This document shows, piece by piece, positions 13,079-20,325 of a stretch of DNA of 50,699 nt. Source of the stretch: a phage. The notes under the pieces are model-generated. The model worked only from the letters and a program-made list of their open reading frames with translations. It did not search any database and was not told where the DNA came from. Every line of letters starts with the position of its first letter. The first letter of the stretch is position 1. Made by a program: the position numbers and the translations under genes. Location of the stretch: the sequence record PZ150740.1, one strand, 5' to 3'.

Positions 13079-13470
13079 TTATGTTTTTGCTTGATCTGTA
13101 TAAATGGTGTGAGTCATACGACTGGTTTAACAGGCAGCACATAGCCAAATTTATCTATCAGCATAGAGAATGTGAGCGGCTCGCACGGGCCGCCGGACTT
13201 ACGCCGCGAATGTTCGCCAGCCTTGCATCTAAGGAATTTTGCGCAAGAATGATGACGGCTGGTTATATAGATGGGGTCTGCGGAAAATACTGGTCCAAAG
13301 GATCGTCAAAGCGGCCTTTCGGATTCGAATTGTATAGCCTGGATGGTATGCGCAACGACTGGATCAGGGATATGGCGAGAATAGGGGAGATGGGCGATGA
13401 TGAATTGTTCCAGGCAAAAGCTGATAGACAAGATCTTGAAGCACTGCGCCGTAAATTCAATATCACATGA
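13075..13470 (+). CDS. hypothetical protein
   Basis: ORF track; ATGA overlap with upstream gene. Confidence 0.5.
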   Translation: MIMFLLDLYKWCESYDWFNRQHIAKFIYQHRECERLARAAGLTPRMFASLASKEFCARMMTAGYIDGVCGKYWSKGSSKRPFGFELYSLDGMRNDWIRDMARIGEMGDDELFQAKADRQDLEALRRKFNIT

Positions 13471-13586
13471 GGATTTTATTCATGCTTTACTTACGCTACT
13501 TTATTCAGATATGCGCGCTTTTAGCACCACTGAACATGTTTTATGCAATGATGATGGTGTATTACTGGTTACGGTAAAGCGTATGG

Positions 13587-13631
13587 AATAGCATTTTTTG
13601 TTAAAACGCCCGGCCTAGTGTCGGGTATATT
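13587..13631 (+). promoter_or_regulatory. box promoter unit (-10-like TATATT)
   Basis: Box with 1 mismatch; 40-bp near-identity to unit at 16802-16846 on the opposite strand. Confidence 0.55.
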
Positions 13632-13667
13632 TGTTTCATCGAAACGAAACAACCAAAAGGTAAAATT

Positions 13668-13892
13668 ATGTCCAGCAAGTTTTTAGTAGTTCGCGTATAT
13701 AATCATGACAACGGATCTTCTGCTGAAATCCCAACAATTTACGACAGGGATTTTGGATGGAGTGAGCAATCGGCGGTTGAAAATGAGCGCAAGATTGCAG
13801 AACTGTACGGCGACACTTGCAGCATTGAAGTAAGGCAGTACGACGAATCGAACAAGCCAACAAACGAAACTCATATGTGGCCCGACGCATAA
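13668..13892 (+). CDS. hypothetical protein
   Basis: ORF track; box unit 13587-13631 upstream; terminator downstream. Confidence 0.5.
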   Translation: MSSKFLVVRVYNHDNGSSAEIPTIYDRDFGWSEQSAVENERKIAELYGDTCSIEVRQYDESNKPTNETHMWPDA

Positions 13893-13898
13893 AAATAA

Positions 13899-13926
13899 AG
13901 GAGGCATTAAGCCTCCTTTTTCTTTT
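13899..13926. terminator. rho-independent terminator (plus strand), overlapping 3' end of spanin gene
   Basis: AGGAGGC-attaa-GCCTCCT followed by TTTTTCTTTT. Confidence 0.5.
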
Positions 13927-14302
13927 CTCTCCAGTAAAGACAAATCAGCACAATTAACACAACCACGCATATGATTACTGGATCGTACCATCTGCCGTTA
14001 TTACCCTGCACGACCTGAATTTTGTCTGCCTTGATGGTATTGGCCTGAATGGTTGATGTTGTGAAATCCTTCTTGCTGGACGTGTCCACCTTGTCAACCG
14101 CAGATTCCTTTATTGTGGTTTCCTGTTTTGTGCTGGCGTCCTGCTTTGCTGTAATGCCAACTGTCTGCTTCACGTTCTCCGCGCCAGCCTGTGCTGTGAT
14201 TTCCGGCTTACTGCCGATTAATCCGGTCAGTGGCGTAACGCTTGAACATCCAGACAAGATCACCGCCATTGCGATTGGTGTAAGTAAAAATTTCTTCATC
14301 AT
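13907..14302 (-). CDS. unimolecular spanin (u-spanin)
   Basis: N-terminal lipoprotein signal (ILSGCSS) plus C-terminal TMD (VIICVVVLIVLICLYW); immediately downstream of endolysin. Confidence 0.6.
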   Translation of the reverse strand: MMKKFLLTPIAMAVILSGCSSVTPLTGLIGSKPEITAQAGAENVKQTVGITAKQDASTKQETTIKESAVDKVDTSSKKDFTTSTIQANTIKADKIQVVQGNNGRWYDPVIICVVVLIVLICLYWREKKKEA

Positions 14303-14303
14303 T

Positions 14304-14788
14304 TCAATCCATTGTGCAATATTTGTATTCGACCTTGCGCCTGTTAAGTAAGCCTTTAGACTTCTCGCGCTTTCCTGTTTTGGGGTTATGGTAATACGTC
14401 CAACGATAAAGCTGATCGCAAGCCTCGTTTAATTTCCCCTGGTTGATGAGTTTCAGCATTGTTGAATTTCTGAAAGCTCCAACTCCTGCATTATAAGTGA
14501 ATGAGTACATTGCTGCACGCATACTATCAGGAATGTCAACCTTAACTTGCTTGTCAACTTCTTTTTTAGCAACCTGGATATGTTTAGCCAACAAAGCATC
14601 ACACTCTTTTTAGTGTACGTTTTCCCCAGGATAACATCTGGTCCGGTTATTCCTGCGCAAACAGTCCATACTCCCGCAATATCTTTGTATGGCTTGTATC
14701 TTACCCCTTCGATCTCTTCAAGAAGTGGAGAAGTCAAGGCAACCGCAACGCCAAAGGCCGCAGCCGCTACCTTGTTCTTTATGCTCAT
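14304..14788 (-). CDS. SAR endolysin (lysozyme), reading frame interrupted by 1-nt frameshift near 14600-14612
   Basis: Two track ORFs in different frames; N-part has SAR-like TMD and [19 protein letters not shown]-part [17 protein letters not shown]; resembles P21-type lysozyme as recalled. Confidence 0.6.
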
Positions 14789-15003
14789 TACTTGCCCCTG
14801 ATTTCAATAGCTTTTTGAATATCACCTTTTTCGATCGCCTCGTGGAATTTTTTACTATCACGCCAGCGAAGGTAAGCGCCCCATGCACCGAATGCAGCCA
14901 TTAAAACAAAGCTGGCAATAGCAATGGTTAACTGCCCTGTAGCTGCGCTTGCGATAGATGAACCGCCAGATCCGGCGGTAGCTGCGTTAATAAAATCTTT
15001 CAT
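14788..15003 (-). CDS. holin (pinholin-like)
   Basis: 71 aa, two hydrophobic segments, Gly/Ala/Ser-rich first TMD; directly upstream of endolysin. Confidence 0.55.
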
Positions 15004-15147
15004 TTTTATTCTCCATATTAATTAAAGTCAATATATTGACCGAATGATAAACTTACATGGTAAAAAATTAAACAAAAAAAGAGGCGACAAACGCCGCCCC
15101 TTTGCAAGTTTTTGATTTAATTTGTCATTGATTTAAATAAAAATTCA

Positions 15148-16265
15148 TCAATTCATCATTTCTGGATAGTGAACAAATCGCCCCACTTCTCCATGCTCTT
15201 TGTCGTAAATGATAACCGCTGCACGGCGTCGAGATCTCCAGCCACCGCGCGCGGCGTATGCGTCTTTTGCCGCCAGGGTGCTATGCACCTCAACGATGCC
15301 AAGCGACGTTTCCGTCACAGTCTGGTGATGCCAGTGCCCTACGTGCGCATACATAGTTTTTGAGTTTCCGAAGTCCTCCCGCCAATCTGACGCGCACATC
15401 ATTAGCAAAGTCTCAGGTTTGCGCACTGTGTGCCCGTGATGGTACGCAAGGAAAGTTTTTCCGTATTGCGTGTGGTGAACAACGCGAGGAGAAACATCAA
15501 CGTAAACGCGCGGCTCGTTCTCATATGCTGCCGCCATTGCTGCGCGTAGCCAAATCATTCCTGATTGGTCGTGATTCCCCTCTACTACCTGGACCTCAAC
15601 ATGTTTATGCTTTAACAGCATTTTATTAATTGCGCGGCGCACTGCACGTATTGCAACGTAAACCAATTTTGCATATCGGCTATCTTGATCAAGTACGTGA
15701 CCGCTTGCAGGTGTCACCGCCTCCAGGCCGTCGCTATGCAGCATATCGCCACCAATCAGGATAACAGCCTTTTCGCTGTCCGGTGCGCACATCAAAGCAT
15801 AGTCGATAAAGTTATTCATAACGCGCTCTGCCGTCGCAGTATCCCAATTTTCGCCGCATTCGTGCTTATGGGCCATAGCGCCTAAGTGCATGTCAAAGAT
15901 CGGATACAATGAAAGCGTTTCATTATAGTTACGCTCCTGCAATGGAACTGGATCTAATCGCGGCACTTCCTCGCTAAATGCCTCCATTGCTGCGCGCATC
16001 AATGCCTCTAATTGCTCTTTATCCTTGCTGGTTTTTGTCCACTTGAGGATTATGTTGCCTTCTTTGTCAGTCATTACTGACTCACCATGAACACCAAAAC
16101 CAGGCGCTCCAATGGTCGATAACTGTCCTTGCTTTGCAAGACGCGCCGCGCGACGCTCGACGCTTCTCACATTCATTCCGTACTCTTGAGCGATCTGTTT
16201 ATATGTCTTACCTGCCGCCCGTTCGATCTTGAGTTGCTCATCTGTAATTTTTACATTTTTCATTC
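15148..16265 (-). CDS. calcineurin-like metallophosphoesterase with N-terminal HTH-like domain
   Basis: Motifs GGDMLHSDG, EGNHD, HHGH; N-terminal segment YKQIAQEYGMNVRSVERRAARL; start adjusted to MKNVKI. Confidence 0.6.
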
Positions 16266-16357
16266 TGCTACCTATCTCATTACTATATGGTACATAACTG
16301 TAACAGCGATGATAACGGGTAACGGTAGAACAAACAAGCGCCACATGATAACTATCC

Positions 16358-16600
16358 TCATTTATAATATTTGCGAGGCTCTCGGATTTTAGCCATTGCC
16401 TCTTTGAAATCAATTTTTGTTGGAACTGCTGGAACTCTCACCATTTTTCGCGGCCTTTCCTTGAGGAAAGTCATCTTATCGCCGCTAATTATGCTCACAT
16501 CTGCAATATCAAAGTATTGCGCGATCTTCTTTATATCGTCGGCTATTCCGCATTCTTTAGCGTGATTCCATACCGCATCTCTACCTTGCTCAACCTTCAT
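16358..16600 (-). CDS. hypothetical protein (start adjusted to MKVEQGR)
   Basis: ORF track frame. Confidence 0.45.
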   Translation of the reverse strand: MKVEQGRDAVWNHAKECGIADDIKKIAQYFDIADVSIISGDKMTFLKERPRKMVRVPAVPTKIDFKEAMAKIREPRKYYK

Positions 16601-16769
16601 GCTTATAATATGCCTCCGCTTGTTCAATTGGCGCGTGACCGTATGCAACTTTCAGTAAAAACATTGCGATGTCCCAATCAAACTGGAACCCTTCCTTTGA
16701 ACCGCCCTCTACTGAACCTTTTGCTACTTCTTGAGCAAGATTAAAAGCGCGTTTATCGAATACCACCAT
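16590..16769 (-). CDS. small protein (59 aa, not in ORF track)
   Basis: Hand-translated MVVFDKRAFNLAQEVAKGS...; RBS GAGGAAATAAAA; downstream of box unit. Confidence 0.4.
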   Translation of the reverse strand: MVVFDKRAFNLAQEVAKGSVEGGSKEGFQFDWDIAMFLLKVAYGHAPIEQAEAYYKHEG

Positions 16770-16801
16770 TTTTATTTCCTCATGTTTGCTTCGTTGAAAT
16801 A

Positions 16802-16846
16802 ATTATGCCCGACACTAGGCCGGGCGTTTTAACAAAAAATGCTATT
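16802..16846 (-). promoter_or_regulatory. box promoter unit (-10-like CATAAT)
   Basis: Box with 1 mismatch; near-identical to unit at 13587-13631. Confidence 0.55.
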
Positions 16847-17102
16847 AGTGGATCATTCCGTGCTGAAAATTCCACGAATCGACAAACTCTTGCATGTCAT
16901 TTCTTATTTGTTCGTGCCATTTTTCAAGCGGTAGTTTTCTTGTCTCCTCAAAGCTCATATCTAATGCGCTTGAAAATTCCCACGGATCGCAATCAATCAT
17001 CTTTTTCACGTTATGGTTTTTATCAAGTGCATCGCACACCATAGCGCGAAATAACAACCATTCGCCAGTTTCATTTAAATAAACGCTTCTCTCTTTTTTC
17101 AT
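16845..17102 (-). CDS. hypothetical protein
   Basis: ORF track; stop in box 16826-16846. Confidence 0.5.
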   Translation of the reverse strand: MKKERSVYLNETGEWLLFRAMVCDALDKNHNVKKMIDCDPWEFSSALDMSFEETRKLPLEKWHEQIRNDMQEFVDSWNFQHGMIH

Positions 17103-17106
17103 CGTG

Positions 17107-17832
17107 TTAGCTCCGTTTGCGTGCGCGACGTTCGGTTACAGAAGGGCAAATATCGCTGATCTTAACGTATCGCGTTTTCTGCTCCTCGCCTTCTTTAAGT
17201 TTGCGCATGACAAAAATCACGCTTCCCTTGTTGTTGCCCTGCACAGGCTCACCAGTCAATCCAGACACAAAGGCGATTCTTCCGGTGCGGGAGTATTCTA
17301 CTCCACCCTCTTCGTAAACCTCGCCAGTGATCCAGATGATTTCAGCCGCGTTTTTCTGCGCTTCATAAAACCATGCTGTAGAGTTGTCGGCTGGCAACAA
17401 AACATCAATTTGGTTGTTGTGCTCCATTTGCTCAATTGCTTTCTTGATAAATGGAGTTGGGTTGCTGTACGGTGGGTTAAGCCATACGTGCTTGTTGCTA
17501 CCCCACCAACGCTTTAAGCAGTTTGTTTCCTTGCTATAGAACTTCTCGCAAACTGCGTTTTCCTGGCTTGCTGCTGCGTCGAGATCGTATTCACCAAATT
17601 CTGATTCCATCCACTCCACGATCTCTTGAGGAGTGCTCCACATATCGCGCACAACGTCCGGCGTGGTGCTTCCAGCGTATCGGTTGCCGCTTACCTTATA
17701 ATATTGATTTGGCTTTACTGCCTGGTAATGGCCTCCAGTTGCAAGGGCATTCCCTATAAACGTTTCTCTCTCCAACTGCTCAAAGCTAACGAATGCGTCA
17801 TGAGTGTCTTTATCTAAAATATCTTTAGCCAT
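17107..17832 (-). CDS. dam: DNA N6-adenine methyltransferase (Dam-like)
   Basis: NPPY motif (WLNPPYSNP); box unit upstream. Confidence 0.75.
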   Translation of the reverse strand: MAKDILDKDTHDAFVSFEQLERETFIGNALATGGHYQAVKPNQYYKVSGNRYAGSTTPDVVRDMWSTPQEIVEWMESEFGEYDLDAAASQENAVCEKFYSKETNCLKRWWGSNKHVWLNPPYSNPTPFIKKAIEQMEHNNQIDVLLPADNSTAWFYEAQKNAAEIIWITGEVYEEGGVEYSRTGRIAFVSGLTGEPVQGNNKGSVIFVMRKLKEGEEQKTRYVKISDICPSVTERRARKRS

Positions 17833-17871: not shown

Positions 17872-17916
17872 ATTATGGCGCAATCCATCGCGCCAGTTTT
17901 AACAAAAAGTGCTATT
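17872..17916 (-). promoter_or_regulatory. box promoter unit upstream of Dam gene (-10-like CATAAT)
   Basis: Perfect box 17896-17916; spacer hairpin GGCGC/GCGCC. Confidence 0.55.
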
Positions 17917-18232
17917 TAAGCATGTATTCAATAGCCAACTTAAACTGATTGAATCCGTAGGCGACCGCAGCGAATCCTCCTAAGCTGCGAACGCGACGCA
18001 AAAAAGCCTTTTGTTCATCGCTGACTGGTGATGCTTTCCCCTTGCCTGATTTATTTACTCGTTTGATCTCAATCGCTGCAAAGGGGTATTTTCCGTTTAA
18101 ACCAATCAGGATGATGAAATCGCTTACTCCCTTAACCAAGCCGGACTGCTGATCAATCATCGCCGTTACTTTAGACTTCTCATTCTCGTTTACCGTATGC
18201 CACGCCAGCAAGTAAGGATGAGCATAAGTCAA
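17912..18232 (-). CDS. VRR-NUC domain nuclease
   Basis: KGVSDFII ... IEIK ... SDEQKAFLRRVRSLGG pattern typical of VRR-NUC; start codon uncertain (TTG in track). Confidence 0.6.
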   Translation of the reverse strand: MTYAHPYLLAWHTVNENEKSKVTAMIDQQSGLVKGVSDFIILIGLNGKYPFAAIEIKRVNKSGKGKASPVSDEQKAFLRRVRSLGGFAAVAYGFNQFKLAIEYMLK

Positions 18233-18329: not shown

Positions 18330-18860
18330 TTAAACAAACTCCCGTTTTGCAATGTTATCCTCACCTTTGCCGTTTTTGCGATGCGTTACGCGTACAGGAG
18401 GCATGATGTGATGAGCGTATGACATTATTTTACGCGCATTTCTATAGCTCGCCACCATACCAGCAATCTTGCGATCCGGTATGTGCTGCAATGCTATTTT
18501 TCTCCATATCGTCCGGCAAATGTTGCTTTCTGACTCAGGGAAAAATCTTTCGTATGCCTTGAACGTGTCGCCGTTGGCCTCAAGCTCATAGCAAAAAACA
18601 ATTCCTTTCTGGTTTTTCGTCATATCAACGCGGAAAGATTTAACGTTGCACCAATCGTTTTTGGTGTAGTGCTTACCGCTTAACTTCTCGTTAGGATCGA
18701 CAAGAGAAATATCGCAACAACGGCAAACTCTCGCCACTACGTCGTTTTTTGTTCCGCAACCGCGCTTGATTATCTTTTTTGTTCTCTGATCTACCTGGTC
18801 CTCGCAAATTCTGTAAGTCCAAAAATGCTCGCATCTCTTCCCGTTATCGTCTACGTGCAT
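18330..18860 (-). CDS. Cys-rich (zinc-ribbon-like) protein
   Basis: Multiple CxxC-like pairs (CEHF...C, CRCC). Confidence 0.45.
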   Translation of the reverse strand: MHVDDNGKRCEHFWTYRICEDQVDQRTKKIIKRGCGTKNDVVARVCRCCDISLVDPNEKLSGKHYTKNDWCNVKSFRVDMTKNQKGIVFCYELEANGDTFKAYERFFPESESNICRTIWRKIALQHIPDRKIAGMVASYRNARKIMSYAHHIMPPVRVTHRKNGKGEDNIAKREFV

Positions 18861-18909: not shown

Positions 18910-20325
18910 TTAGGCTCTTTCCGTTTGTAAATCTCTTTTGAAATTGCGCTTGCTCAAGAATTCGATCGAATACAAATCCCCTAACTCATCCATAGTACCT
19001 GCAAAATCCAATACAAGATGATCTTTTTTCTTGAATCCCTGCTCAATGTGCCATTGCTTAAGCAGTCGCATACCGCGCCCCAAAAGCTGGATAAGCAATG
19101 TTAGAGATCCTATCTTTCTCAGTATTACCGAAGTATCCCAAAACGGAACGTTAACGCCAGTGGTAAGCGCCTGTACCTGGAAGATGTATTTTACTTTCCC
19201 CTCGTATGCCTCCCTCAGCCACTCTTTACGCTGATTATCTCCAGTTTTGCCAGTTATGATCCTGTATTCAACGCCTTGCGGCAGTGCGGCGGCGGCCTCC
19301 TTGCAGTGTCTTTCCCCTGCGCATGTAACTAAAACTCCGTTCCTGTCTTTGCATATCTCATGGACTTTAGCCATGATTTTCTGTGTCATTGTTGCGTCTT
19401 GATGGATCTTTTCTTCCATCTTGCGCAATGTTTTAGCGTCAAAGTCTGAAACGCCATCCTCGCTACTGGCTTCGAACTCTGAAAGGTCATACCCCAGGTC
19501 GCCTACGTCGCCGAAATTTGTTGGCACTACCGAACCGAATTTGATTAAGTAGTTTGTGTCTATGTTAGTAACCTGCTCACGCCAGAATCCCTTTTTGTTC
19601 TTATCTTCAACCAGTATTGGAACCACGCCGCGAAATTCAGATCCAGTCATACCGAATATTCGCAATTCGTGCCCGTATGCCTCGCGACACCTGCGCATCA
19701 TTTCCATGATTATTACGGTGTACTGTGTGCGCCCTGTTCCGAACATTCGATCGCCATTGGAATCAAATTGCTGTTCTTCTCCAATCAGTACAGGCAAATC
19801 CTTCTTAGTGGTCATCTGCTGGTAAGATTCATTATTTTCTATCGCGTCCGCGAGATCCTCCCAATCCACCTGGTGACATTCATCAATACCGATAACGTGC
19901 GGAACATAATCACCTAACGACTTAAACAATCCGTTTACTACAGTGCCCTCAGAACCGACTACGATCGGAAAGTATGCGCTTTTTGTTTTCAGTCCGGCAC
20001 AATAGATTGAGTTTGGCACGCCAAGATTGCTGATCTCTTCCGAATCCTGATCAACAATTTCAGCCTGGCGAGCAAGCACCATCATTTTCAATCCCATTTT
20101 GCGGCATTGCGCCGCAACCATCGCAAACATCAATGTTTTGCCAGCCGACACAGAAGCCTTAACAAAGAAAGGATGCTCATAGTTTTTCATGCGCTTTGCG
20201 ATCTCGGCATACGCAACGCACTGATAAGGATAAGGCACTATATTGCCAACCGTGAATCGCTCTTGGATGCTTTTTATTACTGCCTCGCCTAACGCCGATA
20301 TTTGTTTTTCTATATTTGGAATCAT
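18910..20325 (-). CDS. SF2 DNA helicase (DExH-box)
   Basis: Walker A SAGKT; GIDECHQ (DECH box). Confidence 0.8.
   Translation of the reverse strand: MIPNIEKQISALGEAVIKSIQERFTVGNIVPYPYQCVAYAEIAKRMKNYEHPFFVKASVSAGKTLMFAMVAAQCRKMGLKMMVLARQAEIVDQDSEEISNLGVPNSIYCAGLKTKSAYFPIVVGSEGTVVNGLFKSLGDYVPHVIGIDECHQVDWEDLADAIENNESYQQMTTKKDLPVLIGEEQQFDSNGDRMFGTGRTQYTVIIMEMMRRCREAYGHELRIFGMTGSEFRGVVPILVEDKNKKGFWREQVTNIDTNYLIKFGSVVPTNFGDVGDLGYDLSEFEASSEDGVSDFDAKTLRKMEEKIHQDATMTQKIMAKVHEICKDRNGVLVTCAGERHCKEAAAALPQGVEYRIITGKTGDNQRKEWLREAYEGKVKYIFQVQALTTGVNVPFWDTSVILRKIGSLTLLIQLLGRGMRLLKQWHIEQGFKKKDHLVLDFAGTMDELGDLYSIEFLSKRNFKRDLQTERA

What the first reader, a model, noticed from the sequence alone, without database searches (positions are those of the whole stretch)
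15148..16265. Metallophosphoesterase fused to an N-terminal HTH-like domain, directly upstream of the lysis genes
The protein has calcineurin-like phosphoesterase motifs (GDxxH, GNHD, GH) after an N-terminal segment resembling a DNA-binding HTH (KQIAQEYGMNVRSVERRAARLAKQ). A DNA-targeted phosphatase or nuclease placed between replication and lysis modules could act on host signalling (Ser/Thr phosphatase) or on DNA ends.
Basis: partly seen in the sequence, partly recalled or inferred. Interest (0 to 1): 0.4.

Follow-up and report, generated by a model that had tools for sequence, protein, structure and literature searches.

The report
T1-like phage HTH-tethered metallophosphoesterase nuclease
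This is the conserved, already annotated "phosphoesterase / DNA repair exonuclease" gene of T1-like coliphages: a DNA-binding helix-turn-helix joined to an Mre11/SbcD-like metal-dependent nuclease domain, ordinary for this phage family although nobody has tested it biochemically.

Summary
It has an N-terminal three-helix HTH (residues 8-44), a beta-hairpin/helix linker (56-97), and a complete binuclear metallophosphoesterase core (116-365). The motifs are DMHLG, GDMLH, GNHD, HHGH and GHWH.

The window is a Warwickvirus (Drexlerviridae, T1-like) about 98% identical to phage tiwna. There the gene is annotated "putative phosphoesterase / DNA repair exonuclease" (PHROG 704, E 6e-149). The HTH-phosphoesterase fusion is shared across a very large phage family.

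In other phages the gene sits in DNA-metabolism modules:
- O-like initiator – this gene – DnaB in E. coli prophages.
- Exonuclease – endonuclease VII – this gene – polynucleotide kinase – dNMP kinase – DNA ligase in T7-like phages.
- RecE-like exonuclease – Sak4-like ATPase – this gene in one metagenomic contig.

No Rad50/SbcC partner is encoded. A terminator-like hairpin separates the gene from the lysis genes.

Best reading: a stand-alone, HTH-tethered DNA nuclease of phage replication, recombination or repair. The gene is known and ordinary; interest is low.

The parts
15148..16263 (-). Gene for the 371-aa HTH-metallophosphoesterase protein (ATG 16263, stop 15148-15150).
   Evidence: ORF listing. 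PHROG 704 'DNA repair exonuclease' E 6e-149 over residues 5-370. 98.3% nucleotide identity to the annotated gene of phage tiwna. No indels relative to tiwna.
16132..16242 (-). N-terminal three-helix HTH (residues 8-44; recognition helix about 32-44).
15973..16098 (-). Linker module: beta-hairpin (residues 56-80) plus helix (82-97), with near-invariant W75.
   Evidence: Secondary structure. W75 is conserved in 97% of 87 homologues, with G69, S62 and K77 also conserved.
15169..15918 (-). Binuclear metallophosphoesterase core (residues 116-365), with motifs I-V and a family-specific conserved insert between motifs II and III (T184, P185, H189, L191, D192, D194, R196).
15078..15103 (-). Terminator-like hairpin (11-bp stem, T-run) 45 nt after the stop codon; probable end of the transcription unit.
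   Evidence: A weak promoter-like site at 15031..15002 follows, just before the holin.
16358..16769 (-). Two small upstream ORFs of unknown function (16590-16769 and 16358-16648, overlapping as listed), probably co-transcribed with the gene.
   Evidence: phrog_2180 and phrog_2817, unknown function. Same order in tiwna.
16785..16846 (-). 62-nt element with hairpin GCCCGGCCTAGTGTCGGG just upstream of the three-gene unit; an inverted copy lies at 13587-13648.
   Evidence: Both copies are present in tiwna.
13907..15003 (-). Downstream lysis cassette: holin 14788-15003, endolysin 14304-14788 (split by a 1-nt homopolymer deletion in this window), Rz-like spanin 13907-14302. This is context, not part of the enzyme.

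Best explanation
The gene encodes a stand-alone DNA phosphodiesterase (nuclease) of the Mre11/SbcD/PolD-DP1 branch of the binuclear metallophosphoesterases. It probably depends on Mn2+. An N-terminal LuxR/sigma-r4-like helix-turn-helix appears to hold it on DNA in place of a Rad50/SbcC partner. It is made from the early/middle DNA-metabolism transcription unit. It most likely trims or incises DNA ends and branched or single-stranded intermediates during phage replication, recombination or repair, and may also degrade host DNA.

Shown here: an intact two-metal active site, the HTH fold, the family-wide fusion, the fold neighbours, the genomic contexts, and the absence of a partner ATPase.

Inferred: the substrate is DNA, the HTH binds DNA, and the biological role.
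For: - Catalytic and metal ligands are invariant across 87 homologues down to 32% identity.
- The model is confident (pLDDT 93.3).
- Motifs DMHLG, GNHD and GHWH match E. coli SbcD (DWHLG, GNHD, GHIH) and differ from PphA.
- The N-terminal domain is a DNA-binding HTH by fold and by profile. It is present in at least 109 of 149 family representatives.
- Context in independent phage types is DNA metabolism:
  - O-like initiator – gene – DnaB helicase in E. coli lambdoid prophages.
  - gp6-like exonuclease – endonuclease VII – gene – polynucleotide kinase/3'-phosphatase – dNMP kinase – ATP DNA ligase in T7-like contigs.
  - DUF3799 exonuclease – AAA_24 ATPase – gene.
  - Primase-helicase nearby.
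- In this window it follows the SNF2 helicase, VRR-NUC and Dam genes.
- It is a core gene: the exonuclease-holin-endolysin-spanin module was found in 508 of 522 Drexlerviridae (PMC13164509).
- A stand-alone phosphoesterase ssDNA endonuclease has a precedent in P. putida MPE (PMC7826289).
Against: - No biochemical or genetic data for any member were found.
- Sequence similarity to Mre11/SbcD is not significant.
- The protein has no capping domain and no Rad50/SbcC partner.
- In some relatives the neighbours are nucleotide-metabolism genes (dNMP kinase). One paper files the protein under nucleotide metabolism and detected it by mass spectrometry in virions (PMC8004638).
Confidence: 0.55

Rival explanations
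1. Nucleotide or cyclic-nucleotide phosphodiesterase. The enzyme hydrolyses small phosphodiesters, either for nucleotide salvage alongside dNMP kinase or to destroy host signalling or immune nucleotides. It does not cut DNA.
Against: A family-wide DNA-binding HTH has no obvious role for a small-molecule enzyme. The best fold matches are nucleases. There are no PADLOC or defence-related hits. The gene is a core gene in replication operons rather than in accessory regions.
Confidence: 0.12
2. End-healing phosphoesterase. The enzyme removes 3'-phosphate or 2',3'-cyclic phosphate from broken DNA or RNA ends, or creates such ends. It would work as part of a break-repair set with polynucleotide kinase and ligase, like the phosphoesterase domain of bacterial Pnkp.
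For: In T7-like contigs the gene is immediately followed by polynucleotide kinase/3'-phosphatase, dNMP kinase and ATP-dependent DNA ligase. PNK is the commonest gene after the 'exonuclease' in Drexlerviridae that lack the SH3 gene. P. putida MPE leaves mixed 3'-PO4 and 3'-OH ends.
Against: This window and its closest relatives have no PNK or ligase next to the gene. The neighbouring PNK already carries a HAD 3'-phosphatase. The Pnkp comparison rests on my own knowledge and was not tested here.
Confidence: 0.1
3. Replisome accessory subunit. Like PolD DP1 or the eukaryotic polymerase B-subunits, the phosphoesterase domain acts mainly as a proofreading or scaffolding partner of the phage helicase-primase or of host Pol III at the origin or fork, and the HTH provides origin targeting.
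Against: The gene is also found in phages with their own Pol A. It has no OB fold and no DP2-like partner. In the window it is separated from the primase and helicase genes by several genes.
Confidence: 0.1
4. Protein Ser/Thr/Tyr phosphatase acting on host signalling, like lambda phosphatase.
For: It belongs to the same superfamily, and lambdoid phages are known to carry such phosphatases (my own knowledge).
Confidence: 0.04
5. Transcription regulator whose enzymatic domain is vestigial, or a lysis-associated enzyme given its position next to the holin (LpxH is also a phosphoesterase).
Against: All catalytic residues are invariant, so the enzyme is under selection. A terminator-like hairpin separates the gene from the lysis genes. 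Order and orientation relative to the lysin differ between lineages. Seven or so of the 12 lineages are Drexlerviridae sublineages with shared ancestry.
Confidence: 0.04

Closest known systems
Mre11 / SbcD nuclease subunits (including phage versions such as T4 gp47 and T5 D13, the latter two from my own knowledge)
   Different: No significant sequence similarity. The chain ends with the core, so there is no C-terminal capping domain. No Rad50/SbcC ATPase is encoded in the phage. It has an N-terminal HTH instead, and a 57-residue spacing between motifs II and III containing a family-specific conserved insert.
PolD small subunit DP1 (3'-5' proofreading exonuclease) and the inactive eukaryotic polymerase B-subunits
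   Different: 14% identity. No OB-fold domain and no DP2 catalytic partner. The host phage has no polymerase gene at all.
Pseudomonas putida MPE / PdeM, the ligase-associated stand-alone Mn-dependent ssDNA endonuclease (PMC7826289)
   Same: A stand-alone phosphoesterase nuclease without a Rad50-like partner, encoded in DNA-repair gene clusters. Some phage relatives are also next to an ATP-dependent ligase.
Lambda phosphatase / E. coli PphA-PphB (PPP-type protein phosphatases)
   Same: Same superfamily and the same two-metal chemistry; carried by phages.
   Different: PPP signature motifs are absent. Low structural rank. No HTH in those enzymes. Different genomic module.
PHROG 704 'DNA repair exonuclease' / GenBank 'putative phosphoesterase' of Drexlerviridae
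   Same: The window protein is a full-length member (E 6e-149). It is 97-98% identical at the DNA level to annotated genes in more than 50 phage records.
   Different: Nothing differs. The family name is a computational annotation, and no experiment was found.

Membership tests
Calcineurin-like metallophosphoesterase superfamily | Five metal-binding and catalytic motifs: DxH, GD, GNH[DE], H and GHxH. | tested here: met
   D124/H126, D173, N230/H231, H276 and H310/H312 are present and invariant or nearly so in 87 homologues.
Calcineurin-like metallophosphoesterase superfamily | Pfam PF00149 score above the gathering threshold. | tested here: not met
   17.2 bits against a cutoff of 21.5. 16 of 87 homologues match at E <= 0.01, best 5.8e-5. 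The family is a divergent branch that Pfam covers poorly.
Calcineurin-like metallophosphoesterase superfamily | Beta-sandwich phosphoesterase fold. | tested here: met
PHROG 704 (phage 'DNA repair exonuclease') | Full-length match to the family profile. | tested here: met
   E 6e-149, residues 5-370 on profile positions 3-389 of 390.
Mre11/SbcD nucleases | Significant sequence homology to Mre11/SbcD. | tested here: not met
   phmmer against the PDB gives no hit. The profile gives E 2-3. hhalign against E. coli SbcD aligns only motif III, probability 2.8%.
Mre11/SbcD nucleases | Partner SMC-like ATPase (Rad50/SbcC) encoded with it. | tested here: not met
   No such gene is in the window's ORF set or in the annotated genome of the 98%-identical phage tiwna. 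None appears in any sampled neighbourhood.
Mre11/SbcD nucleases | C-terminal capping domain after the phosphoesterase core. | tested here: not met
   The core ends at about residue 365 of 371.
Mre11/SbcD nucleases | Mn-dependent exo- or endonuclease activity on DNA. | not testable with these tools
   Requires biochemistry.
PPP protein Ser/Thr phosphatases (lambda PPase, PphA) | Signature motifs GDxHG, GDxVDRG and GNHE. | tested here: not met
Ligase-associated nuclease PdeM / P. putida MPE (TIGR04123) | NCBIfam score above the cutoff. | tested here: not met
LuxR/GerE / sigma-70 region 4-type HTH DNA-binding domains | Three-helix HTH fold superimposable on known DNA-binding domains. | tested here: met
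LuxR/GerE / sigma-70 region 4-type HTH DNA-binding domains | Pfam HTH model above threshold in this protein. | tested here: inconclusive
   Sigma70_r4_2 scores 18.5 bits against 25.7 for the window protein. Homologues reach 1.5e-9 (Sigma70_r4_2) and 2.4e-8 (GerE). The N-terminal profile hits RhlR at 3.7e-4.
LuxR/GerE / sigma-70 region 4-type HTH DNA-binding domains | Actual DNA binding, sequence-specific or not. | not testable with these tools
   Needs EMSA, SELEX or ChIP.

The most novel reading that the evidence does not exclude
The HTH-phosphoesterase family would be a Rad50-independent, self-targeting Mre11/DP1-like nuclease that is a core replication or recombination factor of phages relying on host polymerase (T1-like and some lambdoid phages). 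One version has it generating or trimming ends for recombination-dependent replication, or producing 3'-phosphate ends that the frequently adjacent polynucleotide kinase heals. Another has it be the unassigned T1 function for host-chromosome breakdown. The HTH would give it site or structure specificity, and a fraction might even travel in the virion (one mass-spectrometry report).
Probability: 0.15. Interest if true: 0.5.

Novelty: already known. Interest (0 to 1): 0.2.

Why it matters
It matters little for this window. The gene is a routine, already annotated core gene of T1-like phages.

The wider point is modest. This is a very large phage family: 4602 50%-identity clusters at E <= 1e-3, and at least 587 IMG/VR loci. 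It has a conserved HTH-nuclease fusion and no Rad50 partner. It lacks a Pfam or NCBIfam model, is called 'hypothetical protein' in E. coli prophages, and has never been assayed.

A short biochemical study would turn a computational label into a defined activity. It could also clarify how polymerase-less phages such as T1 process DNA ends.

Tried and rejected
- Single-sequence phmmer against the PDB found nothing. The full-length profile gave only weak HTH and motif-III hits.
- The afdb50 fold library was unavailable.
- The search for related loci with the 87-sequence alignment failed for lack of conserved stretches. A 12-sequence alignment worked.
- PADLOC gave no defence-system match.
- Rfam over 13400-17200 gave nothing meaningful: MicX at 21 bits against a cutoff of 75.
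- Eight literature searches for experimental work on this protein family in T1-like phages, escape mutants or essentiality screens found only genome-announcement style mentions.
- A functional link to lysis was considered because an endolysin is the most recurrent neighbour. I rejected it as most likely a module-boundary effect, given the intervening terminator and the variable order and orientation.
- I considered that the long ORF from TTG 16413, or the 398-aa tiwna annotation, is the real protein. I rejected this because homologues start at the ATG.

Full report
**What is there.** The finding sits on the minus strand. The mechanical ORF is 15148..16413 from a TTG. Homologues are 370-380 aa, and 95% of 87 aligned homologues begin at this methionine. 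The gene is therefore 15148..16263, encoding 371 aa. RefSeq phage tiwna annotates a longer 398-aa version, which is probably an over-extended start.

**Identity of the window.** The gene is 97-98% identical at the DNA level to genes of more than 50 Escherichia phages (tiwna, atuna, tonnikala, Kalemo and others). Those genes are annotated 'putative phosphoesterase', 'DNA repair exonuclease' or 'hypothetical protein'. Tiwna is a Warwickvirus (Drexlerviridae, Tempevirinae), that is, a T1-like siphovirus. The protein matches PHROG 704 'DNA repair exonuclease' over its full length (E 6e-149). [quoted passage not shown] The gene and its position are therefore already known and typical.

**Checking the two domains.**
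- The protein's own Pfam hits are sub-threshold: Sigma70_r4_2 at residues 17-41 (18.5 bits against 25.7) and Metallophos at 143-297 (17.2 against 21.5). NCBIfam has no model for it.
- An exhaustive HMMER search found 4602 50%-identity cluster representatives at E <= 1e-3, of which 1043 are at <= 1e-30.
- In an 87-sequence alignment (32-85% identity), D124, H126, D173, T184, N230, H231, H276, G309 and H312 are invariant. H176, D178, D192, D194, R196, H278 and H310 are nearly so. These residues make up the five phosphoesterase motifs plus a family-specific insert between motifs II and III.
- AlphaFold2 on this alignment gives pLDDT 93.3. The model shows helices 8-16, 21-28 and 32-44, a beta-hairpin at 56-80, a helix at 82-97, and the phosphoesterase sandwich at 116-365.
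- An N-terminal profile hits RhlR (3.7e-4), NarL and sigma-H region 4 in the PDB.
- A profile of the first 48 residues matches 109 of 149 family representatives at E <= 0.01, always at the N-terminus.

The HTH-phosphoesterase fusion is real and is shared across the family.

**What kind of phosphoesterase.**
- Motif spellings are DMHLG, GDMLH, GNHD and GHWH. E. coli SbcD has DWHLG, GDVFD, GNHD and GHIH. The PPP phosphatase PphA has GDIHG, GDVIDRG, GNHE and GH.
- Sequence-level tests could not discriminate further.

The enzyme is thus a divergent branch closest to the nuclease phosphoesterases and not a PPP-type protein phosphatase. The margin over generic phosphodiesterases is small.

**Context in the window.** The minus-strand order is SNF2-type helicase, VRR-NUC, Dam methyltransferase, three small ORFs, this gene, holin, endolysin, spanin. 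A terminator-like hairpin (15103..15078) lies 45 nt after the stop, followed by a weak promoter-like site before the holin. Another hairpin (16825..16807), within a 62-nt repeated element, lies upstream of the two small ORFs that precede the gene. The gene is therefore probably the last cistron of a three-gene unit and is not co-transcribed with the lysis genes. Neither the window nor tiwna encodes a Rad50/SbcC-like ATPase or a DNA polymerase.

**Context elsewhere.**
- A 67%-identical homologue occurs in 35 of 5426 complete E. coli genomes, where it is always annotated 'hypothetical protein'. It lies in lambdoid prophages between an O-like replication initiator and the DnaB-type replicative helicase, next to cI, Erf, SSB and NinB.
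- A 43%-identical homologue lies in T7-like contigs in the order DNA polymerase, gp6-like exonuclease, endonuclease VII, this gene, polynucleotide kinase/3'-phosphatase, dNMP kinase, ATP-dependent DNA ligase.
- Another follows a DUF3799 (RecE-like) exonuclease and an AAA_24 (Sak4-like) ATPase.
- Others lie beside Toprim-DnaB primase-helicases and Pol A.
- Across 91 loci in 32 lineages, recurrent neighbours are lysis genes (largely the Drexlerviridae arrangement), PNK, dNMP kinase, HNH and exonuclease.

The common theme is DNA replication, recombination and end repair.

**Mechanism proposed.** The protein is a two-metal phosphodiesterase that cuts DNA as an exo- or endonuclease. It is held on DNA by its own HTH rather than by a Rad50/SbcC clamp, and it acts on ends or on branched or single-stranded intermediates during phage DNA metabolism.
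- Shown: the intact catalytic site, the HTH fold, the family-wide fusion, the nuclease-like fold neighbours, the DNA-metabolism context, and the absence of a partner ATPase.
- Inferred: that DNA is the substrate, that the HTH binds DNA, and the biological role.
- P. putida MPE provides a precedent for a stand-alone phosphoesterase ssDNA endonuclease. It leaves mixed 3'-PO4 and 3'-OH ends (PMC7826289). That would make sense of the frequent PNK neighbour, but membership of that family fails.

**Rivals.** I considered five alternatives: a small-molecule phosphodiesterase, an end-healing phosphoesterase, a DP1-like replisome subunit, a protein phosphatase, and a regulator or lysis role. Each is listed with its evidence. 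None is excluded by experiment, but the protein-phosphatase and lysis readings are the weakest.

**Literature.** Eight full-text searches found no biochemical, genetic or structural study of this family. One paper reports mass-spectrometry detection of the homologous 'phosphoesterase' gp38 in Pantoea phage AAS23 virions and files it under nucleotide metabolism (PMC8004638).

**Verdict.** The feature is an already annotated, ordinary core gene of T1-like phages. What is missing is biochemical characterisation of the family. Interest is 0.2.

Noticed in passing
window 14306, 14606, 15073, 18281, 18920, 18968: Relative to the 98%-identical phage tiwna, the window has single-base deletions in or next to short homopolymer runs. 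They split the endolysin (ORFs 14453-14788 and 14304-14594), shorten VRR-NUC (17912-18232) and split the SNF2-type helicase (18330-18860 and 18910-20325). These are most likely sequencing or assembly errors rather than real pseudogenes. The phosphoesterase gene has none.
   Followed up: partly
window 13587-13648 (+) and 16785-16846 (-): A 62-nt inverted repeat (90% complementary) containing the hairpin GCCCGGCCTAGTGTCGGG. Each copy lies just after a gene's stop and just before a small ORF. The two copies bracket the 3.1-kb block from a small ORF through the lysis genes and the phosphoesterase gene to two more small ORFs. Chance expectation is 0.01 copies. Both copies are conserved in tiwna, and there is no Rfam match. 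It is probably a reused terminator/promoter cassette.
   Followed up: partly
window 16264-16413; L001 7117-7197: The ORF continues upstream to a TTG at 16413, and RefSeq tiwna annotates a 398-aa product. Homologues show that the 371-aa ATG start is the conserved one, so public annotations of this gene are often N-terminally over-extended.
   Followed up: yes
L002 7665-12559; L097 3533-7559 (E. coli prophages): A 67%-identical homologue sits between an O-like replication initiator and a DnaB-type helicase in lambdoid prophages. It is present in 35 of 5426 complete E. coli genomes and is always annotated 'hypothetical protein'. This indicates gene exchange between temperate lambdoid and virulent T1-like phages.
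   Followed up: partly
L004 6535-11143; L068 4470-9270 (T7-like metagenomic phages): Homologues lie in a run of exonuclease, endonuclease VII, this gene, polynucleotide kinase/3'-phosphatase, dNMP kinase and ATP-dependent DNA ligase. This looks like a complete break, heal and seal gene set.
   Followed up: partly
91 related loci (L001-L093): An endolysin of one sequence cluster lies within 4 genes of the phosphoesterase gene in 12 of 32 lineages, including at least 4 that are not Drexlerviridae. Order and orientation vary. It is probably a module-boundary effect but remains unexplained.
   Followed up: partly
literature: Pantoea phage AAS23 gp38 (PMC8004638): The homologous 'phosphoesterase' was detected by LC-MS/MS in purified virions. 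This could be contamination or could hint that the enzyme is packaged.
   Followed up: no
summary: Fifteen records named 'Campylobacter' phage (host Campylobacter jejuni) are among the 119 phage records with a megablast match to this E. coli phage gene. That is unexpected for that host and may reflect mislabelled or contaminating T1-like phages.
   Followed up: no
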